Source of the DNA: a virus
Lineage: Duplodnaviria; Caudoviricetes
Direction: 5' to 3' (one strand)
DNA: 64,000 nucleotides
IMG/VR virus record: IMGVR_UViG_3300029305_002828
Coordinates: 31,278-95,277 of that record
This document shows positions 14,183 through 36,757 of this stretch, in pieces (within the stretch, counting starts at the first letter, position 1; each line of letters starts with the position of its first letter). Under the pieces are notes generated by a model, which was not told the origin of the DNA, searched no databases, and was given only the letters and a program-made list of their open reading frames with translations. Both the position numbers and the translations under genes were made by a program.

Positions 14183-15298
14183 ATGAATACGTCTTTTTCA
14201 TTAACGATGGTTGATGATGTTATCCTTCATAATATGATTAATAGTAAAGAATTCAAAGAGTTTTCTAATTCATTGGATTATTTGGATACTTTATTCAATG
14301 AAAGTCTTATCACTGAAAAGGTTAATGATACAACTCCTAATGCAGGTAAGTTCTTTGGTGCAGTAAAGAAAAATACAGTTGATACAACCAAAGATGTAGT
14401 TAAGGTATATGGTGACGTTGTATCTGGTAATGCAAATGTGATTAAAGCTACTTGGGATTTAGCTGTTAAATCAATTGGTTTTATTGCCAAAGCACTAAAG
14501 TATGTTTTAAATAAGATATCTAATATTCCAAGAATGATTCTTAAGTTAGGTGCTAAAATAAGTGACTTAAGTCTTGATGTAAGAGCAAAAATTTCTGGTA
14601 ATATAACTCTACATGTCACTGCTTCTGATATTGAATTGATATATAACCATCACTTGATGCGTAGATTAATAGCATATGTTGGATATGCTTCATCCCTTTC
14701 TAAAGGGGATTTCTGGTCAACTCTTACACATCGTCGTAAAGCTGAGAGTGATGGTAAAGGAGTTAAAGATAAGATTCACGATTTAGTTGTTAGTGAAAAT
14801 GATATAAAGACATGTAAGAAGATGTCTTCTGAGTTTGCTCATATTAAGAATACTGAATTTAGACGTACTATAATTGATCTTCGAGATAAAACTAATGTTA
14901 ATATTTACTTTGGCGCAGAAAAGATGATTAAGTTTACTGATATTTATGGTAAGAAATATGAGGCTTCTTATACCGAGGCATTAGCTAAAATTATAGAAGA
15001 TCTTGAAGCTAAACGTAAAGAAATAGAAGATCTTCATCAAGCTATCGGTGAGAAGCTTCATTCCACTGAAGTAAATCAAGCATATAATCATCTTAGCGGT
15101 CATGCAAAGTATATATTAACTAATACAATTCTTGAGATCTCTAAAGTGTCTGGGATTATTGGAAACTTTATTAAGTATATATTACTAGATATCAATACTA
15201 TTAATGAAAATCTTGATAAGATTATTGGTATCAGTCGTGGTAAACTTGCTAATGCTAAAGAAAAAGAGAGATCTAAAAATATACCTAATCAGAAATAA
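14183..15298 (+). CDS. Hypothetical protein, possibly internal head/virion protein
   Basis: Helical basic ORF; AACT-N6-TA motif upstream. Confidence 0.6.
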   Translation: MNTSFSLTMVDDVILHNMINSKEFKEFSNSLDYLDTLFNESLITEKVNDTTPNAGKFFGAVKKNTVDTTKDVVKVYGDVVSGNANVIKATWDLAVKSIGFIAKALKYVLNKISNIPRMILKLGAKISDLSLDVRAKISGNITLHVTASDIELIYNHHLMRRLIAYVGYASSLSKGDFWSTLTHRRKAESDGKGVKDKIHDLVVSENDIKTCKKMSSEFAHIKNTEFRRTIIDLRDKTNVNIYFGAEKMIKFTDIYGKKYEASYTEALAKIIEDLEAKRKEIEDLHQAIGEKLHSTEVNQAYNHLSGHAKYILTNTILEISKVSGIIGNFIKYILLDINTINENLDKIIGISRGKLANAKEKERSKNIPNQK

Positions 15299-15299
15299 T

Positions 15300-15332
15300 A
15301 TATTGGGTGAGGGACAGTCCCTCACCCAATAT
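15300..15332. terminator. Bidirectional terminator
   Basis: ATATTGGGTGAGGGAC-A-GTCCCTCACCCAATAT. Confidence 0.75.
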
Positions 15333-15335
15333 TAT

Positions 15336-16043
15336 TTACTTACTCTCTTCAGGAATTATGTTTAATCCTGTATTGACAAGTTCCTTTGCCAGATTCTCAA
15401 TGGATTTACTCATGCTATAGGACCATTTTTCAATTGTCATTCTTCTTGCATTATTATGAATCTCATCCTTCATGAGTTCAGTAATCTCTTCAGGATGTTT
15501 TTCAATATAATTAGTAGCTGTACGTTCGAGAGCCCACTGAATTCCTCTACCGAAACACTGTGCATCTTCATCACCGACGAGAGGGACATCTGCGGTGATA
15601 GTCTTACGGAATATCTCAATCATCTGATCATGATACTCATTAATCATATCTGCTGCATATTTGTCAACAATCTCTTTGAGAACCTGTACAGGAATACTTC
15701 CACAAAAATCACTACGGTTATTGAATACATCATCCAAGAATGAATTTACCTTGGATTCATATATCTTCCTAGCAACATCTTTCATCTCATTTACAGAGAG
15801 ATAGTTGGTAATATCGAAACGATCTTCGAGATTAATACTACCAGGACAATACTCTCTGCAATCCTCAGCTTGAACAGTGATCTCTAACTTATTGACAGTA
15901 TCTTCATCACTGTCATCAATCTCCATGACATAGTCAATGAGACCGCAAGGAAGATGTTTAATCTCCTTTACTTCTGCAATCCAACCTCTCCATTTACCTC
16001 GTATGATGAGAAGTTTATTTCCAACATGCGTTATAGCTGACAT
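15336..16043 (-). CDS. Hypothetical protein with N-terminal KOW/SH3-like motif
   Basis: VGNKLLIIRGKWRGWIAEV; GGAGG RBS. Confidence 0.6.
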   Translation of the reverse strand: MSAITHVGNKLLIIRGKWRGWIAEVKEIKHLPCGLIDYVMEIDDSDEDTVNKLEITVQAEDCREYCPGSINLEDRFDITNYLSVNEMKDVARKIYESKVNSFLDDVFNNRSDFCGSIPVQVLKEIVDKYAADMINEYHDQMIEIFRKTITADVPLVGDEDAQCFGRGIQWALERTATNYIEKHPEEITELMKDEIHNNARRMTIEKWSYSMSKSIENLAKELVNTGLNIIPEESK

Positions 16044-16438
16044 TTGCTTTCCTCCTCCGGATTATGTCCTATGAAATTTATCTTGTTTCCTATGAATGAA
16101 GGAATTAAATCCTTCACATCTGCTTTATAACAACCAATTGCGCATTCATCTACAATTGCAGTAGATTTATAGAATTCGATATGGATGATTTCCCAAAGAT
16201 TTCCATTAGGTATAACTTCAATACACCCTCTAGTTGCTCCAGGAACTCTAAAAGGAATGTACCATTTACCAGAATGATCTTCAGGAGGCATCATATATGT
16301 TTTCATCCACTGATCATATGGAGGTCCCAACTCAGACTGATAAATCTGATATAGATCAAACATATCTGTGATACTACATTGATATTCATCATCATGGTTA
16401 GGTCTAATCCTAACATCAATAATAGCATCAGGATCCAT
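16031..16438 (-). CDS. Hypothetical protein
   Basis: Translationally coupled ORF in a minus-strand operon. Confidence 0.7.
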   Translation of the reverse strand: MDPDAIIDVRIRPNHDDEYQCSITDMFDLYQIYQSELGPPYDQWMKTYMMPPEDHSGKWYIPFRVPGATRGCIEVIPNGNLWEIIHIEFYKSTAIVDECAIGCYKADVKDLIPSFIGNKINFIGHNPEEESKCQL

Positions 16439-16902
16439 TAATCTTCCTCCTTAAATAATTTATCCCAATAAGAAATCTTATCGACCATATTGTCTCCTCG
16501 TTCATCCTTTTGGGAATCCCACATTTCTTCAAGCTTTTTGTTTTCCTCTGGAATAATGCTTAATGGAAATGACATCGGATATGTTAAAGAGAAATCAGAT
16601 GGAGTTATAGCATATCCATAAGGGATGGCACCTCTATTTTCAAAAATTGTTTCAAGAATATGATAGTATGTGACAATGGCCATTCCAGGATTGCCACCAG
16701 AACACATTGAAATGATATATCCAAGTTCAACAGGAATCTTTACATCATATGCCTCGGTTCTCTTAAAGATAATCTTAGAGATGAATTCATCCTCATCATT
16801 GGTGATATATTTCTGGGTTCCGGGCTTCATTTCATTTAAACCCCACATTATGAGTAGTCTAGAACATAACTCACTAGCGGACATCTGGTTCAGATCTTTC
16901 AT
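16438..16902 (-). CDS. Hypothetical protein
   Basis: Coupled ORF with GAGGAGG RBS. Confidence 0.7.
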   Translation of the reverse strand: MKDLNQMSASELCSRLLIMWGLNEMKPGTQKYITNDEDEFISKIIFKRTEAYDVKIPVELGYIISMCSGGNPGMAIVTYYHILETIFENRGAIPYGYAITPSDFSLTYPMSFPLSIIPEENKKLEEMWDSQKDERGDNMVDKISYWDKLFKEED

Positions 16903-16905
16903 TTA

Positions 16906-17136
16906 TTATTCCTCCTCAAGTGTTATAGGTACAACCTTAAATGTATTTTGCTGGATTTGCTCTTTCATATTTGCTTTAAACTTTTGGAGATATGGGCATG
17001 TAAACCCATCTTCTCCAATTTTACATGTATCCCTATTTCGAGATATTCCGCATTCACCTTTCCTAGTATCAGGTGATACTTTATAGAAGAAGCAATCATC
17101 TGGTTTAGATGGCATCTCAGTGACAATAAATTTCAT
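16906..17136 (-). CDS. Small Cys-containing protein (paralogue of 17139-17393)
   Basis: MKFIVTEMPSKPDDC...CKIGEDGFTCPYLQKFKA. Confidence 0.7.
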   Translation of the reverse strand: MKFIVTEMPSKPDDCFFYKVSPDTRKGECGISRNRDTCKIGEDGFTCPYLQKFKANMKEQIQQNTFKVVPITLEEE

Positions 17137-17138
17137 AT

Positions 17139-17393
17139 TTACTTTTCTCCTAAATATACAGGAATATCAGTTGCTCCAATAACTGAATCTCCTTGATAGT
17201 GATGCTTGAAGGCATGAGCTTTAAATTTCATCAAATGGGGACACTCAAATCCTTCTTTACCTATTTTACATTCGAAATATGGCTCTCTAGAAAGCATACA
17301 ACTATCAATGCTCCTAGTAAATGGATCAGTGAAATAATTGTGAAATGAACATTCATGAGGGTTTTCAGGTATTTCATCTACGATTATTTTCAT
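17139..17393 (-). CDS. Small Cys-containing protein (paralogue of 16906-17136)
   Basis: MKIIVDEIPENPHEC...CKIGKEGFECPHLMKFKA. Confidence 0.7.
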   Translation of the reverse strand: MKIIVDEIPENPHECSFHNYFTDPFTRSIDSCMLSREPYFECKIGKEGFECPHLMKFKAHAFKHHYQGDSVIGATDIPVYLGEK

Positions 17394-17776
17394 TATTCTG
17401 CCTCCACTTTAAGACCACAAGTAGCTTCAAACTTGATACCAACTGAACTATGTTTATCCATAAGACGTTTATTGAATTCCTGAACAAGTTCTGCATCGGT
17501 GATATGCTCAATGATACTAAATGGGGTTTCCCTATATTTATCAATACCACCATTCTGGAAAGCCCAATGAATTAATAGATTCAGTCGATCATCGTCAGAA
17601 AGTTCACAAACTTTCTTCTTATAGATATCATCAATTTTATCTTCAGTAATGTATTTATGAATTATATGAATTGCACCATTATTAGAATACCTGAATAGGT
17701 ATCTAATAAACTCCATAAATTCATTATAAGTATCACTGTTTACTTTTTTAACAATCTTCTTGTAATCATCATTCAT
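17393..17776 (-). CDS. Hypothetical protein
   Basis: Coupled ORF. Confidence 0.65.
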   Translation of the reverse strand: MNDDYKKIVKKVNSDTYNEFMEFIRYLFRYSNNGAIHIIHKYITEDKIDDIYKKKVCELSDDDRLNLLIHWAFQNGGIDKYRETPFSIIEHITDAELVQEFNKRLMDKHSSVGIKFEATCGLKVEAE

Positions 17777-18542
17777 TTATGATCTCCTCCTTTTGTGATT
17801 CATTATGATTGTTTTCATGAGACAATACTTCCTCATAGTGTTTAACAGGAATACCTCTAAGTTTACAGAAATCAATCTCTTCTTGAGTATTCTCACCAAC
17901 ATACCCATCTTCAGCAATAAGTATTACATAATCAGATGCAAGCATCTTTTGACGATGAAGTTCATCATAAACTTTATGTTGAGAAGGAGTTAGTGCGAAC
18001 TCAGGAGTGAAGAATAGAGGATGCTTGAATATAGCAGGTGTCAATACAATAAATCCTTTTTGAGATAGAGTAGTTTCAACCATCTCAAATGTATTCTTGA
18101 ATTTACCACTGCCAATCAATGTCACAACAGGGAAAGTTTGGATAGGTTCAAGATATTCAATCTCAATATATTTATGACTGGTCGCATACTCAATCTCTTT
18201 TTGAGTACTATTTCCAATATAACCTTCTTTGTTGATAACAAAGATCATATCAGAACGATCAATTCTTTTGAACTGAATATCTAGTAACTTCTTATGACGG
18301 GTTTCTTTTTCTTCTTGAGTCATATCTTCACTCATAGGTTGTCTGAATGGAGTGAGCACAATATGACCCTGCTCAGTAAGAATGGCTCCTATTCTTAAGA
18401 ATTCATTCCAGTATTTCATACTACCGCAAAGTGTAATAACCTTACTAGTAGATCTTCCAGGATCACTGGTTGGATCTACCATTGCTCGATTGAAATCTGG
18501 TTTGTTGACAATAGTTTCTTTGTTTTGACTGTTAACCCACAT
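17769..18542 (-). CDS. Tandem two-domain nucleoside 2-deoxyribosyltransferase-like (DUF4406-like) protein
   Basis: Two repeats: VITLCGSMKY...GHIVLTP...SDMIFVINKEGYIGNSTQKEIEYA and VTLIGSGKF...GFIVLTP...SDYVILIAEDGYVGENTQEEIDFC. Confidence 0.7.
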   Translation of the reverse strand: MWVNSQNKETIVNKPDFNRAMVDPTSDPGRSTSKVITLCGSMKYWNEFLRIGAILTEQGHIVLTPFRQPMSEDMTQEEKETRHKKLLDIQFKRIDRSDMIFVINKEGYIGNSTQKEIEYATSHKYIEIEYLEPIQTFPVVTLIGSGKFKNTFEMVETTLSQKGFIVLTPAIFKHPLFFTPEFALTPSQHKVYDELHRQKMLASDYVILIAEDGYVGENTQEEIDFCKLRGIPVKHYEEVLSHENNHNESQKEEIINE

Positions 18543-18556
18543 ATGTTATACCTCCT

Positions 18557-18895
18557 TTAATAATTCCATGCGACTCTTGCAGACAACTCAGTACGATGTA
18601 CAATAGAAGGATCATAATTAACATGACCACATCCATAACAGTGATAGCCGAAGCTTCCATCTTCATATGTTATAAGAGTTGGAAGACTTCCACATTTAGA
18701 GCATTTCTTAATTTTGGAATCAAATAGCTGCTCATCAGTAGTATCACTTTCTTTACGTAACCACTCAATGAAATCATCTACAGACGAACTCAAGAGTCTT
18801 CCATTTGCATAAAGTGCATATTGTTGCAGCTGTTTATACACATATGCAAACTCCTCTGGGCTACTTAGTTCCATAAGTTTGTCAAAGTTTCTCAT
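18557..18895 (-). CDS. Protein with Lar (restriction alleviation)-like zinc finger
   Basis: KKCSKCGSLP...CYGCG...ARVAWN. Confidence 0.55.
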   Translation of the reverse strand: MRNFDKLMELSSPEEFAYVYKQLQQYALYANGRLLSSSVDDFIEWLRKESDTTDEQLFDSKIKKCSKCGSLPTLITYEDGSFGYHCYGCGHVNYDPSIVHRTELSARVAWNY

Positions 18896-18974
18896 TTTAC
18901 ATTCCTCCATAATTTATATAAATAAAATAACGTCATAATATAATTTTAATAAATATGCAAGGGAGGTATTAGTT

Positions 18975-20159
18975 ATGTCACAATTGACTAATGACCAATA
19001 CGTTGCCTCTTCTAAACTTGAAAAATGGTATCGTAAATATAACCACCAGATCATAGAAATTTCAGCAGTTGTAGGTACTGGTGTTTGGGATCTAATTCAG
19101 AAGTTTATTGATGATGAAGAATTTGATCCTCGAGAAGTTATGTATTTATCATATAACCAGAAGCAAGTTCTAGAAATGGCAGCGAAACGTTACCATACAT
19201 ACTATATCAATGGAATAATATATAATTACACACGTATAGTAGATTTTGATACACTTCCAGTTATCAATCATACTTCTAAAGAATTAAAATATGAATGGAA
19301 AAAGGAAGTAAGAAAAAAGATTGATAAACGATATAAGTTGATGGTGGTATTTGACTCAGTATTATTAAATGAAAGAACATTGACTGATCTCTGTTCTTTT
19401 GGATTGCCGATAATACTGATAAGAGATCCGATGCTGTTGCCAGCACCGGACTCTTATACATATTTTCATGATCCAAATATAATACTAAGAGAACCTCATC
19501 CTGATTACATTCGTAATCCTTTAAATTACTTTGCTCATAAAGTTCTTAAGGATGAAACTTTTACACCTGGTAGCTATGATAATGTTACAGTTGTACAACG
19601 TAAACAGATGAATCTTTACAATCTTAAATCCTCTGATATGAATATCACTCTTACTGATGGATTAAGACATAATGTAAATCGAATGTATCGAGATCGAATT
19701 ATGAAATGTAAAGACTCAGTCAATGTTCCTAATGAGAGATTAATTGTTACAAGTGATATGTATGGACATCGGATTGTAAATCAAGATGAAAAGAATATTA
19801 AAGTTTATCTACGTAGAGGTGTAGTAGGAAATATTACCAGGATTTATAAACATGCTGAAAGTACAAGATTTGTACATTTTGAGTTTAAACCTGAATTTTA
19901 CTTTGAACCTTTTGAAGATTTAACTTTAGATAGATTCCATCTTAACAGAATAATTTACAATTCTAAACAACAGATTCCTGATGAATATGTACAGATGGAA
20001 TATGCATATGCATTAACACCATCACTTGCAAGATTGAGTCATTGGGATAAAGTTACAATGATTCTTGATCCAGTTAACGATGTAGACCCAGCAATACTTA
20101 AGTCAATGATTTATACAGGAATTACTAGAGCAAAGAAATCCCTAACTCTCATTGTTTAA
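18975..20159 (+). CDS. Dda/RecD-like SF1B helicase homologue with degenerate ATPase motifs
   Basis: ISAVVGTGVWD (Walker A without Lys), VVFDSVLL (Walker B without Glu), RDPMLLP, YAYALTPSLARLSHWDKV, intact MIYTGITRAKKSL (motif VI). Confidence 0.75.
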   Translation: MSQLTNDQYVASSKLEKWYRKYNHQIIEISAVVGTGVWDLIQKFIDDEEFDPREVMYLSYNQKQVLEMAAKRYHTYYINGIIYNYTRIVDFDTLPVINHTSKELKYEWKKEVRKKIDKRYKLMVVFDSVLLNERTLTDLCSFGLPIILIRDPMLLPAPDSYTYFHDPNIILREPHPDYIRNPLNYFAHKVLKDETFTPGSYDNVTVVQRKQMNLYNLKSSDMNITLTDGLRHNVNRMYRDRIMKCKDSVNVPNERLIVTSDMYGHRIVNQDEKNIKVYLRRGVVGNITRIYKHAESTRFVHFEFKPEFYFEPFEDLTLDRFHLNRIIYNSKQQIPDEYVQMEYAYALTPSLARLSHWDKVTMILDPVNDVDPAILKSMIYTGITRAKKSLTLIV

Positions 20160-21445
20160 GTAGAGCATTTCTTTAATGCAATACGAGAAGAAGGAGACAT
20201 ATATCCCTCAGATTCAATTAAGAAGAAATGATATGCATAAGCAATACGATATTTAAACTTACCATACTTTTCTTGCTTTAAAGTTTCATCGAATACTAAC
20301 TGGAAGATCTTATTAGGAGAGAAAGCACTAATATCCCAGTTCTCACCATTAATATAGAAGATAACTTCATTCTCTTCCATACGTGCTTTCATAATATCAG
20401 CATTGTATTTATTATCACTCTTCGTATTGTAGACAATCGTTTCATTACGTTGATTGATATAAGATTGATCTGCATCTTCAATATTAATGGCTGTATCATC
20501 AGTAATAACTACTTTAGCTTCACTACCAATATGCTCGTTATTAGTTTCAGTAAATTTCTGAGTACTAATATCAGCATCTGATAGAGCAACGTAGTTTACT
20601 TTCTCTCCTTCCTTTCTAATCATACCGTTACCAGGAACTGTATTCTCGATTGAGGTAACTACAAAAGTAGTTTCAACCCATTCACCTTCTCGTTTAGCAG
20701 TTACTTTATCGCCAGCACTATTGAGTATGTATAGGGTGTCTATATCATAAAAGATAGTTGCACCCTTCTTATAGATTCCATAGTATTGGTCCATATAGAT
20801 TAATGCTTTATAAGCAGGATGAGCAGGCATAATTAATTCTTTATATACTTCATCATTCTCTGCTTTACTCATTAACACTTTTTTATGTTTAGTAGCTGTA
20901 AGTAAACGACCAATGAATTGTTGAATGGTATTTTCAGTATACACTTCGTTGTATACTTTATTGGATGCATCTAATAATTCACGATTGAATAAGTATAGCG
21001 GTACAATGTTCTGAGATTCATAATAGTTTTCACTCTCAAGATCATTGAGTTGGAAATCTTCACTCTGATTCTGTTCAAGACGTGCTTCCATAGCTTGTAC
21101 GTCAACAGATTCATCATCATCGTTCAGATAGATAGAGAATTCACAGTTCCATACAAGCTCAGGAGATGTATTGAACATTTCAGTATCTACATCCATGCCG
21201 ATTTTGTTCAATTCAAACTTGCATACAATATCACGTTTGTTTTTAAGTATCCAAAGTCTCTTACGTATATCTAATCGTAATACAACTTTAAGGATTGCTC
21301 TGATATTAAATTCATAATCACAGAGATATTCAACTGAAAGAATATTAGTAGCATCCAGTTCAATTTTTTCATCTTTCATCATAAGTACCATGGTTGGTAG
21401 CTTATACTTACAAAGGTATCGTTTAGTGTTAGCATCATCAATCAT
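20156..21445 (-). CDS. Hypothetical protein, possibly baseplate hub/virion structural
   Basis: 429-aa ORF with AAAGGAG RBS; structural role is inference from context. Confidence 0.55.
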   Translation of the reverse strand: MIDDANTKRYLCKYKLPTMVLMMKDEKIELDATNILSVEYLCDYEFNIRAILKVVLRLDIRKRLWILKNKRDIVCKFELNKIGMDVDTEMFNTSPELVWNCEFSIYLNDDDESVDVQAMEARLEQNQSEDFQLNDLESENYYESQNIVPLYLFNRELLDASNKVYNEVYTENTIQQFIGRLLTATKHKKVLMSKAENDEVYKELIMPAHPAYKALIYMDQYYGIYKKGATIFYDIDTLYILNSAGDKVTAKREGEWVETTFVVTSIENTVPGNGMIRKEGEKVNYVALSDADISTQKFTETNNEHIGSEAKVVITDDTAINIEDADQSYINQRNETIVYNTKSDNKYNADIMKARMEENEVIFYINGENWDISAFSPNKIFQLVFDETLKQEKYGKFKYRIAYAYHFFLIESEGYMSPSSRIALKKCST

Positions 21446-29369: not shown

Positions 29370-29376
29370 GTAAATG

Positions 29377-29409
29377 ATAAAGTGGTGGGTATTACACCCA
29401 CCACTTTAT
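29377..29409. terminator. Hairpin terminator
   Basis: ATAAAGTGGTGGGT-loop-ACCCACCACTTTAT. Confidence 0.7.
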
Positions 29410-29469
29410 TTTCTTATTATTTACATTCCATTTAATTAAGTTAAAATATATCAAAGAGGTGAATGTAAA

Positions 29470-31284
29470 ATGAATGCATTTAAACTAGAAAAAGATATTA
29501 TACTGTACAAGGTGCAGTTTGATAAATATTGTCTAAATCTTTTTCATGAATATAGACTAGATAGATTGTCTCTAGATGTAGATGGATTATTATTTAGGAT
29601 CAAATATATGGTTAAAAATAATAAAGATCTTGATAAGATTCCAGAGTTACAAGATCAGTTTATTGAAAAGGCTAGACAACTTCACAATTCTTTCGGTGAA
29701 TTCCTATATCTTTTAATCGCTCAAGTTATTGGTATTCCGGATCCGTTTAAACTTGATGACTTAGAAGATATATTAGCACAAGATGTAAAGATCGATACTA
29801 CCTATGTGAAGTTTAAGATGGTAGTAGTATCAAGTAATAAAGAATTCCTTGAGTATATTGATAATAGTATTCCTGAGGATGAAGTCTATAATATTGATAA
29901 AACCGAATATTTTAGATTTAATACTGATTCTTATAATGATGGAGTATCTAAAGCATATCCAGAATTATTTGAAGATCGTCATCAGGATGTTGTCGGTAAA
30001 GGTGCAGATGGAGATGTCTTCGTTCATAACTTCACATTTCAAACATCAGAAAGATGTTCCCTTAACTGCACTTACTGTTATCAGTTTAATAAAACTCCAA
30101 TGAGAATGCCATTTGAAACAGCTAAAACTTTCATTGATAATCTTTTAGCAGATAAATATGGATATATTAACAGATATAATTCTCCTGCCATTATCATTGA
30201 ATTTATTGGTGGAGAACCTTTAATGGAGATTAAACTTACTAGGAAGATTTATGAATATTTCCTTGAGAGATGTTATGAGTTAGATCATCCTTGGTTTACA
30301 CTTCATAGAGTATCCATCTGCTCTAATGGTATGCAATATTTCAATCCAGATGTCCAAGCATTCTTTAATGATTATGCTCAGAATGTCTCCTTTAATATTT
30401 CAATTGATGGTAATAAAGAGTTGCATGATGCTTGTAGAATTCAGCCTAACGGTGAAGGTAGTTATGATATAGACATGGCTGCTCTTAATCATTATAACAA
30501 ACATTTTACTCCAGAGCGTAATTCTAAGATGACTCTTGCTCCATCTAATATGAAATACCTATTTGATTCTGTAGTAGATTTCATTAATAATGGAATGACA
30601 TGTATCAATATTAACTGTATCTTTGAAGAGGGATGGAATCAAGAAACTGCTTTAATTGAATATCAACAATTAAAGAAGTTAACAGACTATATCTTAGATA
30701 ACAATCTTGAGCATCTCTATATTGCTATCTTTAATGAGATACAGGAAGATATGTTTTCTAAGTATAATGATTCTGCTCCATGTGGTGGTCAAGGATCGAT
30801 GCTTGCATTAAGACCTAATGGCCAGTTCTATCCTTGTATTCGTTATATGCCTACATCAGTTGGTGATAATGTAAAGGATCTTTGTATTGGCCATATTGAT
30901 ACAGGTATTGTTGGGCGTGAGCAAGATTCTGAAATTCTTCAGATGATGGACAGAATTACTCGTAGAAGTTACAGTAATGATATTTGTTATGAATGTCCAT
31001 TGAGTAATGATTGTGCAAACTGTATTGCACTTGGCCATACTGTATTTGGTACACCTAATAAAAGACCTACATTTATTTGTATACAGATGATTGCAGAAGC
31101 ATTAGCTAATGTATATTACTGGAATAGATTATTGCTTAAACATCCTGAATATGATCTTCCTATACGAAAGAATGTAGTTCCTGATGAGTGGTCTTTATTG
31201 GTAATTGATAAAGATGAACTTGATTCTCTTAAACTATTAGAGTGTGCTGCAATCGCTTCTAAGATAGAGTTAGGAGGTAAATAA
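29470..31284 (+). CDS. Radical SAM/SPASM peptide/protein maturase, CXXX-repeat target family-like (TIGR04115-like), with about 180-aa N-terminal extension
   Basis: FTFQTSERCSLNCTYCYQ (CX3CX2C), EFIGGEPLME, SNG, ISIDGNKELHDACR, GSYD; SPASM cysteines CGG...YPCIRY...CYECPLSNDCANC...C. Confidence 0.9.
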   Translation: MNAFKLEKDIILYKVQFDKYCLNLFHEYRLDRLSLDVDGLLFRIKYMVKNNKDLDKIPELQDQFIEKARQLHNSFGEFLYLLIAQVIGIPDPFKLDDLEDILAQDVKIDTTYVKFKMVVVSSNKEFLEYIDNSIPEDEVYNIDKTEYFRFNTDSYNDGVSKAYPELFEDRHQDVVGKGADGDVFVHNFTFQTSERCSLNCTYCYQFNKTPMRMPFETAKTFIDNLLADKYGYINRYNSPAIIIEFIGGEPLMEIKLTRKIYEYFLERCYELDHPWFTLHRVSICSNGMQYFNPDVQAFFNDYAQNVSFNISIDGNKELHDACRIQPNGEGSYDIDMAALNHYNKHFTPERNSKMTLAPSNMKYLFDSVVDFINNGMTCININCIFEEGWNQETALIEYQQLKKLTDYILDNNLEHLYIAIFNEIQEDMFSKYNDSAPCGGQGSMLALRPNGQFYPCIRYMPTSVGDNVKDLCIGHIDTGIVGREQDSEILQMMDRITRRSYSNDICYECPLSNDCANCIALGHTVFGTPNKRPTFICIQMIAEALANVYYWNRLLLKHPEYDLPIRKNVVPDEWSLLVIDKDELDSLKLLECAAIASKIELGGK

Positions 31285-32244
31285 ATGAATTCGGTATCAA
31301 TTAAACCAAACAGTCTCTCTATAGGATACAATGTTACAGGTCAAGATTTTTTTGATACAATTTCTGGATTCTCTGATTTTGTTCATTCATATTTTTTCTC
31401 ACTAACTGAGGATGTTCATGGTAATAAGTTTGATTCCGATAAAACATTCAAGACTCTATGTGAATGTGAGAAGTATGGAATGAAAGGAAATCTATTACTT
31501 AACCGATTTGATTCTTCTGGTTTATATTGGCATCTGGTTCAAAAAGCAAGAGAAATCGACGGATTATCCGGTGTCACAGTTATTCATCCAAAGATTGCTG
31601 AATGTATTAAACAGGATTTTCCAGAATTAGAAGTTCATATTTCTGTTCGATATTGGGATTGGTTGGGTGATAGAGATGGAACAATCCGCACAAATCCATT
31701 CGACAAGATTAAACTTCTAGCTGAGTCTGGAGTAGATGTTGTAAATATATCTGGCGAACTTCATTTCAATAATAATGATGTAATTGAATATATCCATGAA
31801 GTTGGAATGAAAGCAAAAATCATTATTAATGAAGGATGTATTATTGGTAGGGAATATAACTATAATAAATTTCCGGAGTTTGAAGAATTTGATTGTAAGG
31901 GTGATAAAGGTGGTAAGGATGGTAAATGTGGACGACATTGTATAGATTTATTTGAAAAGTATCCTTGGATGAAATTATCTAGAATAGGATTATTTAAGGA
32001 AGATCTATTATATCATAATTATGATATTTTTAAAATTGCTTCCAGAATGATTTCGAATAAAGATCTATATGACATTTTAGTTAAATTCGTTCTAAGCCCT
32101 AGAACTATAAATCTCTTTGGAGTTCCTATAACTGATGATAATTATCAAGCATTTATGAATTGGATTGCTGACAGATCTAATTGTCCAATTGACTGCTATA
32201 ATTGTAGGAAATGTGAATACCACTATAATCAAATAACAAAATGA
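31285..32244 (+). CDS. U32 peptidase-family-like Fe-S protein
   Basis: FPELEVHISV, KIIINEGC followed by three further Cys, FKIASR, C-terminal CPIDCYNCRKC; starts immediately after the rSAM stop. Confidence 0.7.
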   Translation: MNSVSIKPNSLSIGYNVTGQDFFDTISGFSDFVHSYFFSLTEDVHGNKFDSDKTFKTLCECEKYGMKGNLLLNRFDSSGLYWHLVQKAREIDGLSGVTVIHPKIAECIKQDFPELEVHISVRYWDWLGDRDGTIRTNPFDKIKLLAESGVDVVNISGELHFNNNDVIEYIHEVGMKAKIIINEGCIIGREYNYNKFPEFEEFDCKGDKGGKDGKCGRHCIDLFEKYPWMKLSRIGLFKEDLLYHNYDIFKIASRMISNKDLYDILVKFVLSPRTINLFGVPITDDNYQAFMNWIADRSNCPIDCYNCRKCEYHYNQITK

Positions 32245-32247
32245 TTG

Positions 32248-32280
32248 ATTAGGATAGGGATTCTAAATCCCTATCCTAAT
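32248..32280. terminator. Hairpin terminator
   Basis: ATTAGGATAGGGATT-loop-AATCCCTATCCTAAT. Confidence 0.7.
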
Positions 32281-32292
32281 TTACTTAACTGG

Positions 32293-32304
32293 AACGACTT
32301 ATTA
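32293..32304 (+). promoter_or_regulatory. Putative late promoter motif AACG-N6-TA
   Basis: AACGACTTATTA; similar elements precede several structural-type genes; resembles the AR9 late AACA-N6-TA element as I recall it. Confidence 0.4.
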
Positions 32305-32341
32305 AGTCATGATTGAAATAAGTAACATGGAGGTGATTTAA

Positions 32342-35014
32342 TTGAATAGAGATTTATATTCTAATATAGAATTTACTGATCTCAAAGAAAGATTAAATCA
32401 AGAGATATTACGTAGAGGAACTTATCGATGGTGGGATCCTCTTACTACTCCATCAGTTGGTGAAGACCAAAGTCCACCATTAACTATACCTGCTTCTGGA
32501 GGGCAGATTATAGTTGATGATAAAACTTATACTGTCAATAATCCTTCTGAAGGATCTCTTGAAAGAACTAGGAATGTTCATTATCCAGCCCAAGGAGAAA
32601 ACCCTGCTGGACAAAACCCTGATCGAAAATCTACTGTACCTAATACATCTGCAGCTCAATTAAATGTAGATGAACTTCGAAACCTATTGATTGGTCTAGC
32701 TAAGATACAAGATATCAACCTATTCTATGGACGAGATGAAGTTCAATATCTTGCATTTAGAGATCCTCAAGGTATTGAAGATGCATTGATTGCTGCAGAG
32801 AAAGCTCCATTAAATAAACCTTTAAAAGAGTCTGATATCTTTCCTACAAAGAATGATCCAAATGGTGGTTTAACAAATTCATTACATGATAACTATCCTA
32901 ATGCTAAATTGAATGTAACATATCCTACAAATAATAGAGGGGAATATGTTATGCCATCTGGGGAGTTCGATGGTGAAGAGGTTAAACAATATGAAGGTTT
33001 AGGCCCATCTAACTTTTATGACGACTATGGTGCTAAACCTGGAGACAATAATTATCATCCTTATAATAGATTCATATCTGAAACTGTTAAACGAGATTGG
33101 CATGATCAAGATAATGAACGCAATGTTATTGTAACTAAAGTTAGACAAGGTGGAGTATCATCTAAACGATTTGGTACCAATCCTCGCAATCCTCAACAAG
33201 GTAATGAATATCAATCTCGTCCAGTATATGGTGGTGTAATTAATAACTGTAATAATGCATGTACAGGTTTATGTTACGTCACTTGTGATAATCAATGTTC
33301 GGAATCTTGTACTACTACATGTTGGAGTAGATGTGGTAATGCTTGTACTTCATCCTGTGGTAACGTTTGTACTGGATGTAGTACAATGTGCTATTCTTCT
33401 TGCAAGACTAAGTGTGAGAATAATACTGGATACTCATGTGTAACAGCTGGAGCTAAGGCAGTTAAGATTACTACTACTGGCGGTAAGAATGGAATTCCTG
33501 CAAAGAATAATATTGAAATCCAAACTTATTCTTGCACTGGATGCTCTTATAGCTGTCAATTCTATCCTAATAAGAAAACTGAATGTTGGGACTCCGGGTG
33601 TATGGGTAAATGTTTTACCTCTTGTACAACTTCTTGTTCTACTTCTTGTTATGGTGGATGTATTGATAATGCTGAGGAAAAGAGTACTGGATATCGTACG
33701 GGCAAGGGCAGAGGTTGTGATGGTGGATGTACTCTAAACTGTATTGCTCTCTGCCAGGGTATTTGTGAAGGATATTGTGTTCAGACTTGCTGGCATGCAT
33801 GTAAACAGAAATGTTCTGATAACTGCTCTTGGAAATGTACTACGAATTGTGGACATGGTTGTGCAACTGGTTGTACTCAATCTTGTACTGGTTGTGCTGG
33901 CGAATGTTCTGGTAGTTGTAAGGGAGAAGCAAGACAAGTAGCCTGTGTTGGTTGTTCTATGGAAGGTGGGTGTGTTTCCATTTGTGCATCTGACTGTAAT
34001 TCTAACTGTGTTGGTTGGGGTTGTAGATCTATCTGTGGTGTAGATGGTGGTGACGCATGTGAATCCAACTGTAGATTGAACTGTATGGGAACTTCCTGTA
34101 CATCTATGTGCTCTGATGCATGTAGTGAACAATGCACTACTTGTGTTAACAACTGTGGTTGGCAATGTGGTATGTGTTCTTCTCAATGCTCTACTGGATG
34201 TTCTCAGGAATGTAACATTACATGTAGTGCAGCATGTGAACATAGTTGTGAAACTAACTGTGTCATGTCTTGTACTGAAACATGTGGTGGATGTTCTAAC
34301 CTCTGCTACTCTTGTGTAGGCATGTGTATTGGAGTATGCTCTGTTAAGTGTGAGAATGGATGCTCTAGCTGTACTAATAATTGTGGTTACTGGTGTGATT
34401 CTACTTGTAGTCAGGCATGCTTCTCTACTTGTGATAATATGTGTATCCAGACTTGTATGAGCTCTTGTGTATCTTTCCTTGAATCTGATACTAAAACTAG
34501 ATTATCAGGGCCTGAAAGATTACCTACTTCAGCTGGGTACATTTATCCTGATCCTAAGAACAGATGGGAACAAAGAGAATCCTTTAAGTTAACTCGATTC
34601 ATTCCTAGACCTTATAAAGTTAAGGATGATGAAAAAGAAACACTTATCCATATTACTCTTGATGAGGATAAGAACTTAAAGATCATTTGTCCTGAAGCTC
34701 TTACATATGTTATCAAGCAAACTGTTGTCAATGGTGGTGTATTTACATATGACAATGATGGAAATATTCATATTGATGAAGATATGCTTCCTGCAATTGT
34801 AAATGTTAATAAACCTAATATTGATGATGGTGGAGGCATCTACATTATCATATTTGATAAGAATGATGAGATAACATTTACTGATGAAGATATTTCTTTT
34901 AATCTTCCGTTTGGAATTAATCTATTCCCTCTAATAAAAGATAAGAAGGATAACTCTCTCGTAATTGTACAAAAAGATCCATTCTTATATTTTGATGAAG
35001 AGGTGTTGCCATAA
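32342..35014 (+). CDS. Giant Cys-rich CXXX-repeat protein; putative radical SAM modification target
   Basis: 890 aa; about 88 Cys counted by hand in a 407-aa central segment with mostly C-x3-C spacing; Cys-poor N- and C-terminal domains; GGAGGTG RBS before TTG. Confidence 0.85.
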   Translation: MNRDLYSNIEFTDLKERLNQEILRRGTYRWWDPLTTPSVGEDQSPPLTIPASGGQIIVDDKTYTVNNPSEGSLERTRNVHYPAQGENPAGQNPDRKSTVPNTSAAQLNVDELRNLLIGLAKIQDINLFYGRDEVQYLAFRDPQGIEDALIAAEKAPLNKPLKESDIFPTKNDPNGGLTNSLHDNYPNAKLNVTYPTNNRGEYVMPSGEFDGEEVKQYEGLGPSNFYDDYGAKPGDNNYHPYNRFISETVKRDWHDQDNERNVIVTKVRQGGVSSKRFGTNPRNPQQGNEYQSRPVYGGVINNCNNACTGLCYVTCDNQCSESCTTTCWSRCGNACTSSCGNVCTGCSTMCYSSCKTKCENNTGYSCVTAGAKAVKITTTGGKNGIPAKNNIEIQTYSCTGCSYSCQFYPNKKTECWDSGCMGKCFTSCTTSCSTSCYGGCIDNAEEKSTGYRTGKGRGCDGGCTLNCIALCQGICEGYCVQTCWHACKQKCSDNCSWKCTTNCGHGCATGCTQSCTGCAGECSGSCKGEARQVACVGCSMEGGCVSICASDCNSNCVGWGCRSICGVDGGDACESNCRLNCMGTSCTSMCSDACSEQCTTCVNNCGWQCGMCSSQCSTGCSQECNITCSAACEHSCETNCVMSCTETCGGCSNLCYSCVGMCIGVCSVKCENGCSSCTNNCGYWCDSTCSQACFSTCDNMCIQTCMSSCVSFLESDTKTRLSGPERLPTSAGYIYPDPKNRWEQRESFKLTRFIPRPYKVKDDEKETLIHITLDEDKNLKIICPEALTYVIKQTVVNGGVFTYDNDGNIHIDEDMLPAIVNVNKPNIDDGGGIYIIIFDKNDEITFTDEDISFNLPFGINLFPLIKDKKDNSLVIVQKDPFLYFDEEVLP
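33248..34468 (+). repeat. C-x3-C / C-x2-C coding repeat tract
   Basis: TGT/TGC codon roughly every 12 nt with non-identical spacers. Confidence 0.9.
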
Positions 35015-35292
35015 TGGGAAAGATAACTGAAGTATTCTACAAAGAAATAGATCCTAAAGCATGTAGTGTACAAGATGCTTCTAAATATCATTATTTATTT
35101 AATCTCTTAAAGTATCATGAAATGTTTCAAACTGATTATGAGAAATATGAAAGAGATCAAATTCTATTAAGGAATTCATTAGTAGGTAATGCTATTGAAG
35201 CTGGAGAATTAAAATGTCCTCCAAAGATGAATACTACTATCTTTGGGATCTCTGCTCAAAAGAATAGAGCTGTATTAATTATTGAAACTTAA
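35014..35292 (+). CDS. Small protein coupled to the CXXX-repeat gene; possible accessory/chaperone
   Basis: TAATG stop/start overlap; 92 aa, helical with terminal beta strands. Confidence 0.65.
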   Translation: MGKITEVFYKEIDPKACSVQDASKYHYLFNLLKYHEMFQTDYEKYERDQILLRNSLVGNAIEAGELKCPPKMNTTIFGISAQKNRAVLIIET

Positions 35293-35295
35293 TTA

Positions 35296-35324
35296 ATGAG
35301 GAGGGGAGTTAATCCCCTCCTCAT
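35296..35324. terminator. Hairpin terminator
   Basis: ATGAGGAGGGGA-GTTAA-TCCCCTCCTCAT; core identical to 58380-58404. Confidence 0.7.
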
Positions 35325-35388
35325 CTTCGTATTTTTCTATTATTAGTTTATATATTCTATCTATAGACTATGATAGGAGGTAACCCTT

Positions 35389-36141
35389 ATGAAAGAACAT
35401 CCTTGGTGGAGAGCATTCCTACTTGATGCATTTGATGATAATCATGAGATTGTTAAAACATTTACAACCGGAGGTATTCAAAAAGTATTTTCTAAAATAT
35501 GTCCCAGAGAACAAGAAATGATACTGATGAGGTATCAATACAATTTTACTTATGATTACATAGGAAAACATTTCGGTGTTAGTAAAGAAAGGATCCGAGA
35601 GATCATAAGTAGAAATCGGCGTAGTATGAGAAGGCCATGGAATCTTGAACTATTGACTGGTAATGAAGCTCCAATGGAAGGAACTCCTCTTGCTGAACTC
35701 GGATTGTCTACAATGACTTTTAATGCATTGGTAAGAAGAAACATCTTAACAATTGAAGCTTTGAAATCCTATAAAATGGATGACATCTATAGGTTCTATC
35801 ACATTGGTAAGGTTGGAGTAAAGGAGATCATAGATAAAATTACTGAATACGATAAGGCTCATAATAACGAAATAACCGAAATGAGGGAGGCTAGTAAAAT
35901 GACTCTTAGAGCTGTCAGCAAGGTTATATATAATCCTGGCACTGCATCTGAAAACAGAAACATCAAGGTTATCACAATGAGTGATAATCGACTTCTTTGG
36001 GAGGGCCCTGCAAAAGAACTAAAGACATGTCCAGAAATTAAAAAGAATTGGGAGGTAGTTGAAATATTGGTAGATAGGACTACTAAGGTTGAAGCCAATA
36101 TTCCTGATTACAACCGAGGTAAAATCATTGTAGTTGTTTAA
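35389..36141 (+). CDS. Sigma-70 region 4 HTH fused to RNAP alpha-CTD-like domain
   Basis: PREQEMILMRY...TYDYIGKHFGVSKERIREI (sigma 4.2); LAELGLSTMTFNALVRRNILTI...IGKVGVKEI (alpha-CTD); TATATATTCT at 35349. Confidence 0.8.
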   Translation: MKEHPWWRAFLLDAFDDNHEIVKTFTTGGIQKVFSKICPREQEMILMRYQYNFTYDYIGKHFGVSKERIREIISRNRRSMRRPWNLELLTGNEAPMEGTPLAELGLSTMTFNALVRRNILTIEALKSYKMDDIYRFYHIGKVGVKEIIDKITEYDKAHNNEITEMREASKMTLRAVSKVIYNPGTASENRNIKVITMSDNRLLWEGPAKELKTCPEIKKNWEVVEILVDRTTKVEANIPDYNRGKIIVVV

Positions 36142-36155
36142 GGGGGATCTATATA

Positions 36156-36416
36156 ATGACTACCATTGATGAAAAGAAACAATATGACCACAATCTAGAG
36201 GTTCATGGATGTGGATACTGGTCAGTTTGTTTGGAACATGATTGTCCTTGTCACCCCACAGCTAGAGTAAATCAAGGGTTTTCAATTGATACATGGAGAT
36301 CATTAAAATCCCATATGGAATCTACTATTGATGGATATTATTCCGGTGGATATATAGATGATATCTGGCCTGAGGATGAAGATGATTTTCCTGAAGATGA
36401 TCCTGATTGGGATTGA
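36156..36416 (+). CDS. Hypothetical protein, Cys/His-containing with acidic tail
   Basis: 86-aa ORF, AAGGGGG RBS. Confidence 0.6.
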   Translation: MTTIDEKKQYDHNLEVHGCGYWSVCLEHDCPCHPTARVNQGFSIDTWRSLKSHMESTIDGYYSGGYIDDIWPEDEDDFPEDDPDWD

Positions 36417-36418
36417 TA

Positions 36419-36456
36419 AAAAAATAAGGGGAGCTATCATGCTCCCCTTATTTTTT
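36419..36456. terminator. Bidirectional terminator
   Basis: AAAAAATAAGGGGAGC-loop-GCTCCCCTTATTTTTT. Confidence 0.8.
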
Positions 36457-36757
36457 AATATGCCATACGATATACAGATACAGAATCTTTAGCTACTTCC
36501 CAACCATCATAGTTCCACATGTATTGAGGAGATCTAAACTCTTCAGGTACATGCTCATTGGTAATCTTGATCTTGATTGCTTCAATCTTAGCAGTGATAG
36601 GAATTAACATCTGCTCAGCTTGTTCATACTTGACCTGATCATCAATCAGCTGTAGAAGTAAACGCTCACGAATAGTCTGTTTAGTCAGAAGATCAGATAG
36701 TTCCTTAGCAAGTTCCTCAGGAATCTGGAAACTTCCAACAATGATTTGCTCTGCCAT
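36455..36757 (-). CDS. Small protein resembling CXXX-repeat modification system accessory protein (TIGR04116-like)
   Basis: 100 aa; N-terminal IVG..IPEE, long helical hairpin, C-terminal WNYD...VSVY; resemblance judged from memory of the family. Confidence 0.45.
   Translation of the reverse strand: MAEQIIVGSFQIPEELAKELSDLLTKQTIRERLLLQLIDDQVKYEQAEQMLIPITAKIEAIKIKITNEHVPEEFRSPQYMWNYDGWEVAKDSVSVYRMAY

What the first reader, a model, noticed from the sequence alone, without database searches (positions are those of the whole stretch)
29470..36757. Phage-encoded RiPP-like system that appears to modify a giant Cys-repeat (probably virion) protein
Seen: a radical SAM/SPASM gene, an abutting U32-like Fe-S gene, an 890-aa protein with about 88 C-x3-C/C-x2-C cysteines, a coupled 92-aa protein and a nearby 100-aa protein, all embedded among tail-fibre genes of a jumbo phage. 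Known: bacterial CXXX-repeat systems (TIGR04114 target, TIGR04115 rSAM, TIGR04116 accessory) pair this maturase type with short Cys-repeat peptides, and related SPASM enzymes install Cys-to-carbon thioether crosslinks (sacti-/ranthipeptides). Inference: the phage has repurposed RiPP chemistry to staple a large structural protein with many thioethers. This could give a rigid, protease- and reduction-resistant fibre or receptor-binding element where disulfides cannot form (anaerobic cytoplasm, gut). No leader peptidase or adjacent exporter is present, which fits an intracellularly assembled substrate. I am not aware of an experimental description of such a system but cannot check the literature.
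Basis: partly seen in the sequence, partly recalled or inferred. Interest (0 to 1): 0.92.

Follow-up and report, generated by a model that had tools for sequence, protein, structure and literature searches.

The report
Phage radical-SAM enzyme with giant cysteine-ladder protein
A giant gut or rumen-type bacterial virus encodes an 890-residue protein with 88 evenly spaced cysteines plus a matching radical-SAM enzyme, which probably cross-links it into a stiff particle part, though no experiment has shown this.

Summary
Window 29470-35292 (+) encodes four genes.

- **Radical SAM/SPASM enzyme.** Its best family is the CXXX-repeat maturase TIGR04115 (329 bits, cut-off 350).
- **Abutting TIM-barrel Fe-S protein.** Profile comparison places it in a divergent branch of the U32 superfamily.
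- **890-aa protein with 89 Cys.** 88 of them form a 407-residue ladder, and 68 of the gaps are CX3C.
- **92-aa gene** that overlaps the stop codon of the 890-aa gene.

The 100-aa gene on the other strand belongs to the neighbouring virion-protein operon, not to this system.

The ladder protein has more than 135 relatives with a nearly fixed Cys count (85-96). It occurs together with the rSAM gene in 5 of 5 complete 246-292 kb relatives, even where the two genes lie 60-90 kb apart. The U32-like gene is optional (3 of 5). The canonical helpers TIGR04116 and TIGR04119 are absent.

AlphaFold folds both flanking domains but not the ladder. The C-terminal domain is variable, as in receptor-binding fibres.

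Thioether stapling and presence in the virion remain inference. No paper describing this system was found. The same scan has already noted the phage CXXX/rSAM theme on other DNA (241 notes, at least 97 genomes).

Verdict: a new variant of a known but uncharacterised kind, and of high interest.

The parts
29376..29410 (+). 15-bp GC-rich hairpin with T tail after the upstream 693-aa tail-fibre-like gene; marks the start of the rSAM + U32-like unit
29470..31284 (+). Radical SAM/SPASM maturase, 604 aa (P0001). Residues 1-186 are a clade-specific N-terminal extension (29470-30027). Residues 187-550 are the TIGR04115-like core.
   Evidence: weak PqqD-like lead for the extension
31285..32244 (+). 319-aa TIM-barrel Fe-S protein (P0002), a divergent U32-superfamily member. 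C185, C219, C300, C304, C307 and C310 are invariant in the family and C204 is about 90% conserved. An optional accessory.
32248..32280 (.). 15-bp hairpin between the U32-like gene and the ladder gene; separates two transcription units
32342..33247 (+). Ladder protein P0003, N-terminal Cys-free domain (aa 1-302). Includes a conserved leader-like helix (aa 8-24, motif FTxLKxxLNxEIxRR) shared with a 193-aa phage CXXX protein in L001.
33248..34468 (+). Cys ladder, aa 303-709: 88 Cys, mostly CX3C, nearly all invariant. Meets the TIGR04114 repeat cut-off when hits are summed. AlphaFold pLDDT about 25.
34469..35014 (+). Ladder protein linker plus variable C-terminal beta-rich domain (aa 710-890, one Cys). 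pLDDT 70-89. 35% mean identity among homologues, and the length after the ladder varies from 50 to 319 aa.
35014..35292 (+). 92-aa protein (P0004), overlapping the ladder gene's stop by one base. It follows the ladder gene in every relative examined where the contig continues past the ladder gene, including those where the rSAM gene is far away. Candidate chaperone or partner.
35296..35324 (+). 12-bp GC-rich hairpin that ends the ladder + 92-aa unit

Best explanation
This is a phage-borne, trimmed-down version of the bacterial 'CXXX-repeat' radical SAM maturation system, applied to a large protein rather than a peptide.

The 890-aa protein is made in the cytoplasm without a signal peptide. Inferred: its N-terminal domain, with a leader-like helix, is recognised by the rSAM/SPASM enzyme, perhaps through the enzyme's own 186-aa N-terminal extension, which would stand in for the missing stand-alone helpers. 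Inferred: the enzyme then works along the 407-residue ladder and converts most of the 88 invariant cysteines into covalent cross-links. These are most likely thioethers of the sactionine or ranthionine type. The result would be a rigid rod between a conserved N-terminal domain and a variable C-terminal domain, from a segment that cannot fold by itself.

The conserved N end and variable C end, the downstream small coupled gene, and the position beside tail-fibre-like genes fit a virion appendage with a receptor-binding end. The U32-like Fe-S protein is an optional accessory, either an electron-transfer partner or an O2-independent hydroxylase.

Shown here: gene content, family assignments, Cys invariance and co-occurrence. 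Inferred: the substrate relation, the chemistry and the location in the virion.
For: - The rSAM matches TIGR04115 end to end (329 bits). The next hits are all Cys-thioether enzymes: PapB 141 bits, QhpD 88, CcpM 88, SCIFF maturase 78. The CX3CX2C and 7-Cys SPASM motifs are intact.
- The ladder reaches the TIGR04114 cut-off when hits are summed (23.4 vs 20 bits) and carries PF27846.
- 89 homologues hold 85-96 Cys, and nearly all ladder Cys are invariant while the residues between them vary.
- Co-occurrence: the ladder gene is found in 3 of 3 complete genomes picked by their rSAM gene, and the rSAM gene in 5 of 5 records picked by their ladder gene. That gives 5 of 5 complete genomes, in two of which the genes are 60-90 kb apart.
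- AlphaFold with 90 sequences folds the N domain (pLDDT 60-86) and the C domain (70-89) but not the ladder (about 25).
- Identity is 62% in the N domain, 69% in the ladder and 35% in the C domain, whose length also varies.
- The 92-aa gene always follows the ladder gene.
- Neighbours: a 693-aa and a 1294-aa tail-fibre-like protein, a virion structural protein and an SLT lysin.
- Inteins sit in both the rSAM gene and the ladder gene of relatives, which is typical of conserved, needed genes.
- Other phages pair CXXX proteins with rSAM genes: L001 from a human gut phage, and SPN3US. Some ladders are fused to a Peptidase_G2 fibre-chaperone domain or to surface-repeat domains.
- Precedent: CrpC installs ranthionine links on the 29-kDa Cys-rich protein CrpA (PMC13692751).
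Against: - There is no experimental datum on any TIGR04115-type enzyme or on this protein.
- The rSAM scores below the curated TIGR04115 cut-off (329 vs 350 bits).
- PapB's CX3D/E acceptor pattern is missing. The positions between cysteines are mostly S/T/G/N, with D or E at about 4-6% each, so the acceptor carbon cannot be named.
- No PHROG, Pfam or fold match ties the flanking domains to known fibre proteins.
- The gene sits next to non-structural genes too: a sigma-like protein and an exonuclease.
- In two complete relatives the enzyme and target genes are not linked.
Confidence: 0.55

Rival explanations
1. The rSAM does modify the ladder, but by other chemistry than Cys-to-carbon thioethers. 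Examples are oxidation of Cys to formylglycine-like or thioaldehyde species, as anaerobic sulfatase maturases do, C-C cross-links, or links between chains.
For: SPASM enzymes catalyse many reactions. The anaerobic sulfatase maturase model also hits (53 bits) and cyclophane-forming models hit at 40-60 bits. No acidic acceptor is conserved. The U32-like neighbour hints at a further redox or hydroxylation step.
Against: The five best-scoring characterised families are all thioether-forming. The invariance of Cys, but not of any other residue, fits Cys as the donor at each step.
Confidence: 0.2
2. The ladder is a metal-binding, Fe-S-binding or disulfide-bonded segment that needs no enzyme. The rSAM acts on another substrate and merely shares the genome.
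For: A CX3C/CX2C density of 22% Cys resembles metallothionein-like proteins. The genes are 60-90 kb apart in two complete relatives. AlphaFold's failure on the ladder would also fit cofactor-dependent folding.
Against: The enzyme's closest family is defined by its pairing with exactly this repeat. Co-occurrence is 5 of 5 complete genomes. The same pairing is seen in unrelated phages (L001, SPN3US). No other Cys-rich or peptide-like candidate substrate was seen in the window.
Confidence: 0.12
3. The ladder protein is modified as proposed but is not a virion appendage. It could be an intracellular, injected or released factor, for example for host takeover, sulfur or metal handling, or adhesion after lysis.
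For: No structural or family match to fibre, spike or baseplate proteins was found. The adjacent genes include a sigma-like factor and an exonuclease. Bacterial CXXX targets are Tat-exported proteins, not virion parts (L002).
Against: Identity is high in the N domain and low in the C domain, whose length varies. A small coupled downstream gene resembles a fibre chaperone arrangement. The gene stays beside the 1294-aa tail-fibre homologue in G001 after rearrangement. Ladders in other phage proteins are fused to Peptidase_G2 or surface-repeat domains.
Confidence: 0.3

Closest known systems
NCBIfam CXXX-repeat radical SAM system (TIGR04115 maturase, TIGR04114/04117/04118 targets, TIGR04116 associated protein, TIGR04119 second maturase). 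It was defined in silico and, as far as I know, has not been characterised. A canonical example is L002.
   Same: The rSAM aligns over the whole TIGR04115 model as its best hit. The target has the same Cys-every-fourth repeat, rich in S/T/G/N.
   Different: The rSAM is below the equivalog cut-off and has a 186-aa N-terminal extension. The target is 890 aa with two globular flanks and no Tat signal, against about 100-200 aa with a Tat signal in L002. There is no TIGR04116 and no TIGR04119. A U32-like protein sits in the second-enzyme position and is not homologous to TIGR04119. The system is carried by a phage.
CrpC/CrpA of Methanococcus voltae (TIGR04463; Dieter et al. 2026, PMC13692751)
   Same: An rSAM/SPASM enzyme acts on a Cys-rich repeat protein rather than a peptide. 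An N-terminal part of the substrate serves recognition. AlphaFold has low confidence on the Cys-rich part.
   Different: It is a different rSAM family (TIGR04463 scores only 41 bits here). CrpA has a 17-residue repeat with C-X-X-Q/D, is 29 kDa, and comes from an archaeon. Here the target has 88 Cys in CX3C units, is about 98 kDa, and comes from a phage.
PapB/PapA (freyrasin) ranthipeptide maturase
   Same: It is the second-best HMM hit (141 bits). It performs repeated short-range Cys cross-links within CX3X units.
   Different: The score is below the cut-off (340 bits). PapB needs Asp or Glu at position i+4, whereas here i+4 is the next Cys and acidic residues are rare. PapB's substrate is a peptide with a leader, not a protein.
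Peptidase U32 superfamily (UbiU/UbiV, TrhP, RlhA; from my own knowledge these are Fe-S proteins of O2-independent hydroxylation)
   Same: A TIM barrel, the NEGC motif with conserved cysteines, and profile-profile probability 99.95% to a subfamily in which 13 of 15 members hit PF01136.
   Different: There is no direct Pfam hit. It has an extra C-terminal CX3CX2CX2C motif. Its context is rSAM genes, including fusions. Its substrate is unknown.
Short CXXX proteins with rSAM pairs in SPN3US-like jumbo phages and in gut phage contig MT835573 (L001); PHROG 6085 and PHROG 1802, both without a known function
   Same: Phage-borne, next to tail-fibre-like genes, with a leader-like N-terminal helix followed by the ladder.
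   Different: Those targets are 130-193 aa without a C-terminal domain. The SPN3US rSAM is only 24% identical.

Membership tests
TIGR04115 (CXXX-repeat rSAM maturase, equivalog_domain) | HMM score at or above the curated cut-off of 350 bits | tested here: not met
   329 bits, E 4.5e-98, model positions 3-359 of 359. It is the best hit by 188 bits, but it is under the cut-off. I treat it as a divergent close relative, not an equivalog.
TIGR04115 / SPASM rSAM | CX3CX2C radical SAM cluster motif plus the seven-Cys SPASM motif | tested here: met
   C196/C200/C203, and C438, C456, C506, C509, C515, C518, C537, conserved in 8 homologues.
TIGR04114 (CXXX target repeat) | Repeat HMM at or above 20 bits | tested here: met
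   The best single repeat scores 19.6 bits, and 23.4 bits when summed with neighbours in the frame. hmmscan on the protein listed nothing, so this is met only by summing. Precomputed PF27846 is on the protein.
CXXX-repeat system | TIGR04116 associated protein present | tested here: not met
   No match at E <= 1 in the 95-kb contig. The contig is 32% complete, so a distant copy cannot be excluded.
CXXX-repeat system | TIGR04119 second maturase present | tested here: not met
   The only match is the rSAM's own SPASM region, 34 bits against a cut-off of 150. P0002 is not homologous to a TIGR04119 protein (hhalign probability 0.4%).
PapB-type ranthipeptide maturase (NF047865) | HMM at or above 340 bits, and CX3D/E acceptor motifs in the substrate | tested here: not met
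   141 bits. D or E make up about 4-6% at each position between cysteines.
Peptidase U32 (PF01136) | Pfam HMM at or above the gathering score of 22.4 bits | tested here: not met
   No hit at E <= 0.01 for P0002. Remote kinship is shown instead: a profile search reaches U32 proteins, and hhalign gives 99.95%, E 3e-38, to a subfamily in which 13 of 15 members hit PF01136.
U32-type Fe-S protein | Conserved cysteines able to hold a 4Fe-4S cluster on a TIM barrel | tested here: inconclusive
   The model is a TIM barrel (pLDDT 70). C185, C219 and the C-terminal C300/C304/C307/C310 are invariant in the 38-sequence family alignment, and C204 is about 90% conserved. Cluster binding was not tested.
Phage tail fibre / receptor-binding protein | Family or fold match to known fibre, spike or baseplate domains | tested here: inconclusive
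   No Pfam match, and the only PHROG match is phrog_6085 of unknown function (E 7e-4). Foldseek against PDB and BFVD gave nothing at E < 0.01. VIA-align best Z was 4.2, and only the C domain was tested. Indirect signs only.
Phage virion protein | Detected in purified particles | not testable with these tools
   No cultured relative was found in the phage collection.

The most novel reading that the evidence does not exclude
A whole clade of 250-300 kb phages of anaerobes uses a dedicated radical SAM enzyme to install up to about 88 consecutive thioether staples in one 98-kDa structural protein. This would make a covalently laddered rod that carries a swappable receptor-binding domain. It would be by far the largest RiPP-like modified protein, and the first virion component built by radical chemistry, replacing disulfides where oxygen is absent.
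Probability: 0.35. Interest if true: 0.9.

Novelty: new variant of a known kind. Interest (0 to 1): 0.68.

Why it matters
Radical SAM peptide maturases are known mostly from small antibiotic-like peptides. Enzymatic thioether links in a full-size protein were shown only in 2026, for one archaeal 29-kDa protein (PMC13692751).

Here the same logic appears in a virus, on a protein three times larger with about nine times as many conserved cysteines as CrpA has repeats. The protein is conserved across a large clade of uncultured giant phages.

- If the chemistry is confirmed, it gives the still uncharacterised TIGR04115 family a substrate that is easy to follow.
- It would show a new way to build oxygen-independent, reduction-proof extracellular structures.
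- It would add post-translational radical chemistry to the set of tools used in phage particle assembly.
- It would offer an enzyme that may staple very long designed repeats.
- The optional U32-like partner and its rSAM fusions point to a second unexplored enzyme pairing.

Tried and rejected
- Megablast of the region against GenBank phages found no match. tblastn of the ladder protein hit only Mycobacterium phage Tweety gp54, a repeat-composition match I judged irrelevant.
- tblastn of P0002 against phages found nothing, and a single-protein pattern scan of viral contigs found nothing.
- The fold of P0002 gave generic TIM barrels, with U32 entry 5d88 only at rank 16. That is not decisive on its own. 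A profile of the P0002 family against PDB sequences gave nothing.
- The fold of the ladder protein gave no credible match in PDB, BFVD or VIA-wide. The N domain was barely tested.
- I tested whether P0002 replaces TIGR04119 by homology. It does not.
- I tested whether the rSAM N-extension is a fused TIGR04116 or PqqD-like domain, or relates to the two small genes between target and enzyme in L001. There was no HMM support. Only a weak language-model lead to a PqqD cluster appeared (score 0.86, below the tool's trust level).
- The 92-aa protein had no family and no useful atlas hit.
- The 100-aa protein is rejected as a component, because it travels with the virion structural gene.
- The annotated neighbours of the SPN3US rSAM pair looked Cys-poor at first. 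A six-frame ORF scan showed two unannotated CXXX proteins.
- Literature searches for CXXX repeat, TIGR04115, U32 + RiPP, phage + SPASM + thioether, rSAM + tail fibre, and SPN3US + rSAM found nothing relevant.
As a result, the contexts of most of the 135 homologues, a docking test of enzyme and N domain, and expression data could not be obtained.
- A pattern scan with the 38-sequence U32-like alignment failed for lack of conserved stretches.


Full report
**What is there**

Between 29470 and 35292 on the + strand, strong hairpins divide four genes into two units.

Unit 1 holds a 604-aa radical SAM/SPASM protein (P0001, 29470-31284). A 319-aa protein (P0002, 31285-32244) starts at the very next base.

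Unit 2 holds an 890-aa protein (P0003, 32342-35014; TTG start behind a GGAGGTGA ribosome-binding site) and a 92-aa protein (P0004, 35014-35292) that overlaps its stop by one base.

P0003 has 89 cysteines. 88 of them lie between residues 303 and 709. 68 of the successive gaps are CX3C and 9 are CX2C. Other long ORFs of the window (over 250 aa) have at most 3.4% Cys. The ladder is not a DNA tandem repeat.

**The phage**

The contig is a 95-kb virus record that CheckV rates 32% complete. It encodes split multisubunit RNA polymerase beta and beta' genes, virion structural proteins, a 1294-aa tail-fibre-like protein and an SLT lysin. Its nearest cultured relatives are only about 27-35% identical in RNAP. 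They are Fusobacterium, Bacillus, Listeria and Staphylococcus jumbo phages. Close uncultured relatives reach 246-292 kb with terminal repeats. 'Jumbo phage' is thus a sound inference.

**The enzyme**

- Residues 187-550 of P0001 align with the whole TIGR04115 model (329 bits, E 4.5e-98, cut-off 350).
- The next hits are PapB (141 bits), QhpD, CcpM and the SCIFF maturase, all Cys-thioether enzymes.
- The CX3CX2C motif and seven SPASM cysteines are conserved in eight homologues.
- Residues 1-186 form a conserved extension that a canonical TIGR04115 protein lacks (L002). Its only lead is a sub-threshold similarity to PqqD-like clusters.
- In most relatives a Hint-type mini-intein sits inside the CX3CX2C motif. 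The window's copy is intein-free.

**The second gene**

- P0002 has no direct Pfam, NCBIfam or PHROG hit.
- A five-sequence profile found 113 cluster representatives. Of ten further hits scanned, nine of them distant ones, eight carry Pfam Peptidase_U32. The other two (P0172, a closer hit, and P0205) are fusions with a radical SAM domain.
- hhalign of the family against a U32-bearing subfamily gives 99.95% probability, E 3e-38, over 297 columns. 13 of the 15 members of that subfamily hit PF01136.
- AlphaFold gives an eight-stranded TIM barrel (pLDDT 70).
- C185, C219 and a C-terminal CX3CX2CX2C motif (C300, C304, C307, C310) are invariant in the 38-sequence family alignment, and C204 is about 90% conserved.

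The gene is not a fixed part of the system, however. Among five complete relatives it is present in three. In two of those it lies far from both the enzyme gene and the target gene. It is absent from the other two. In other viral contigs its relatives sit among several rSAM genes with no ladder protein nearby. It is not homologous to TIGR04119.

**The ladder protein**

- A word-indexed search with the N domain found 135 relatives. All of those listed carry the precomputed Pfam family PF27846, which is not in the local Pfam copy.
- 89 homologues of 860-1020 aa hold 85-96 Cys, mean 88.8.
- In a 90-sequence alignment nearly every ladder Cys is invariant. The residues between them are mostly S, T, G or N and they vary.
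- The TIGR04114 repeat model reaches its cut-off when repeats in the frame are summed.
- Identity to the window protein averages 62% in the N domain, 69% in the ladder and 35% in the C domain. The length after the ladder varies from 50 to 319 residues.
- AlphaFold with 90 sequences models the N domain (pLDDT 60-86) and the beta-rich C domain (70-89) but not the ladder (about 25).
- No fold or family match identifies either flank.
- Thirteen homologues carry a Hint + LAGLIDADG intein. In the one scanned (P0012) it starts at the first ladder cysteines.
- The N-terminal helix motif FTxLKxxLNxEIxRR is shared with a 193-aa CXXX protein of a human-gut phage contig. There it precedes a TIGR04115-like rSAM gene and a collagen-like fibre gene (L001).

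**Linkage**

The order tail-fibre-like gene, rSAM, ladder gene, 92-aa gene recurs in several related contigs.

- The ladder gene is present in all three complete genomes that were picked by their rSAM gene, although in two of them it is 60-90 kb away.
- The rSAM gene is present in all five records that were picked by their ladder gene.
- Together this gives 5 of 5 complete genomes with both genes.
- The only records lacking the ladder gene are fragments, and the complete genomes G001 and G002, which carry near-identical rSAM loci, have it.

The 92-aa gene follows the ladder gene in every relative examined where the contig continues past the ladder gene, including the unlinked ones. The 100-aa gene (36455-36757, minus strand) instead stays with the 325-aa virion structural gene. 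I exclude it from the system. TIGR04116 and TIGR04119 are absent from the contig.

**Interpretation**

The best reading is that the rSAM enzyme modifies the ladder protein. The enzyme's closest family is defined by its pairing with this repeat. All its nearest characterised relatives make Cys thioethers. The pairing survives genome rearrangement. The ladder is the one part that cannot be folded from sequence alone.

Thioether stapling into a rigid rod is the most likely chemistry, but it is inferred. PapB's acidic acceptor is absent, so the acceptor carbon is unknown.

A virion-appendage role is suggested by four things:
- the conserved N end and variable C end;
- the chaperone-like coupled gene;
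- the position beside tail-fibre-like genes, which holds even after rearrangement;
- ladders in other phage proteins that are fused to a Peptidase_G2 fibre-chaperone domain or to surface-repeat domains.

No direct evidence exists for this role. I put 0.55 on the combined reading. The rivals are other rSAM chemistry, an enzyme-independent metal or Fe-S ladder, and a non-virion role.

**Comparison and novelty**

The system works like the in-silico-defined bacterial CXXX-repeat system, of which L002 is a canonical example with a Tat-signal target, TIGR04115 at 630 bits and TIGR04119 at 235 bits. It also works like CrpC/CrpA, the 2026 demonstration of ranthionine links on a 29-kDa protein (PMC13692751).

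It differs in several ways:
- the enzyme scores below the cut-off and has an N-extension;
- both helpers are missing;
- a U32-like partner is present;
- the target is a 98-kDa three-domain protein without an export signal;
- the carrier is a phage.

SPN3US-like phages carry a small-protein version. Two CXXX genes there are unannotated.

No paper on phage CXXX systems was found. The same scan has already noted the theme on other DNA: 241 notes in at least 97 genomes. This window is therefore a further, unusually large variant and not a first sighting.

**Limits**

As a result I have no neighbourhood census of the 135 homologues, no docking test and no expression data.

Noticed in passing
L006:8001-10280, L007:7986-10307, L008:8001-10241, L010:8001-10322, L011:7974-10226: The rSAM genes of most relatives carry an in-frame Hint-type mini-intein of about 140 aa, inserted inside the CX3CX2C cluster motif (…CSLN | intein …HN | CTYCYQ). 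The window's copy and those of L004 and L005 are intein-free.
   Followed up: yes
P0012 and 12 other homologues of 1223-1346 aa: These ladder-protein homologues carry precomputed intein families. In the one scanned (P0012) a Hint + LAGLIDADG intein starts at the first ladder cysteines (residue 306). Both enzyme and target are thus intein targets in this clade.
   Followed up: partly
L003:3094-3486 and L003:3497-3901 (Salmonella phage SPN3US, NC_027402, about 143.4-144.2 kb): Two unannotated 130-aa and 134-aa CXXX-repeat proteins lie upstream of the two SPN3US radical SAM genes. The annotated gp100 (L003:3570-3905) overlaps one of them in another frame and is probably a wrong call.
   Followed up: partly
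window 35389-36141 (+): A 250-aa protein joins a sigma-70 region 4 domain to an RNA polymerase alpha C-terminal domain. tblastn found no counterpart in the related loci.
   Followed up: no
window 56635-58308 (-): A phage-encoded ABC half-transporter of the exporter type (ABC_membrane + ABC_tran; phrog_2392), 21 kb from the ladder system. No link to it was shown.
   Followed up: no
P0172 (680 aa), P0205 (644 aa); L021:4182-9748, L022:2628-8942: Members of the U32-like family occur fused to radical SAM domains, and in other viral contigs they sit inside clusters of two to three rSAM genes with no Cys ladder. This looks like a separate, unexplored U32-like/rSAM partnership.
   Followed up: partly
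G008 (IMGVR_UViG_3300042922_000542) 14946-21194: This complete 246-kb relative has the orthologous rSAM gene plus three further rSAM paralogues (25-28% identity) clustered next to it and near its ladder gene.
   Followed up: no
L004:2720-5938: This ladder homologue is 1072 aa. It has large insertions in the N domain and in the C-terminal domain that contain internally similar 'G(Y/C)L(I/V)' segments, so the flanks tolerate domain insertions.
   Followed up: no
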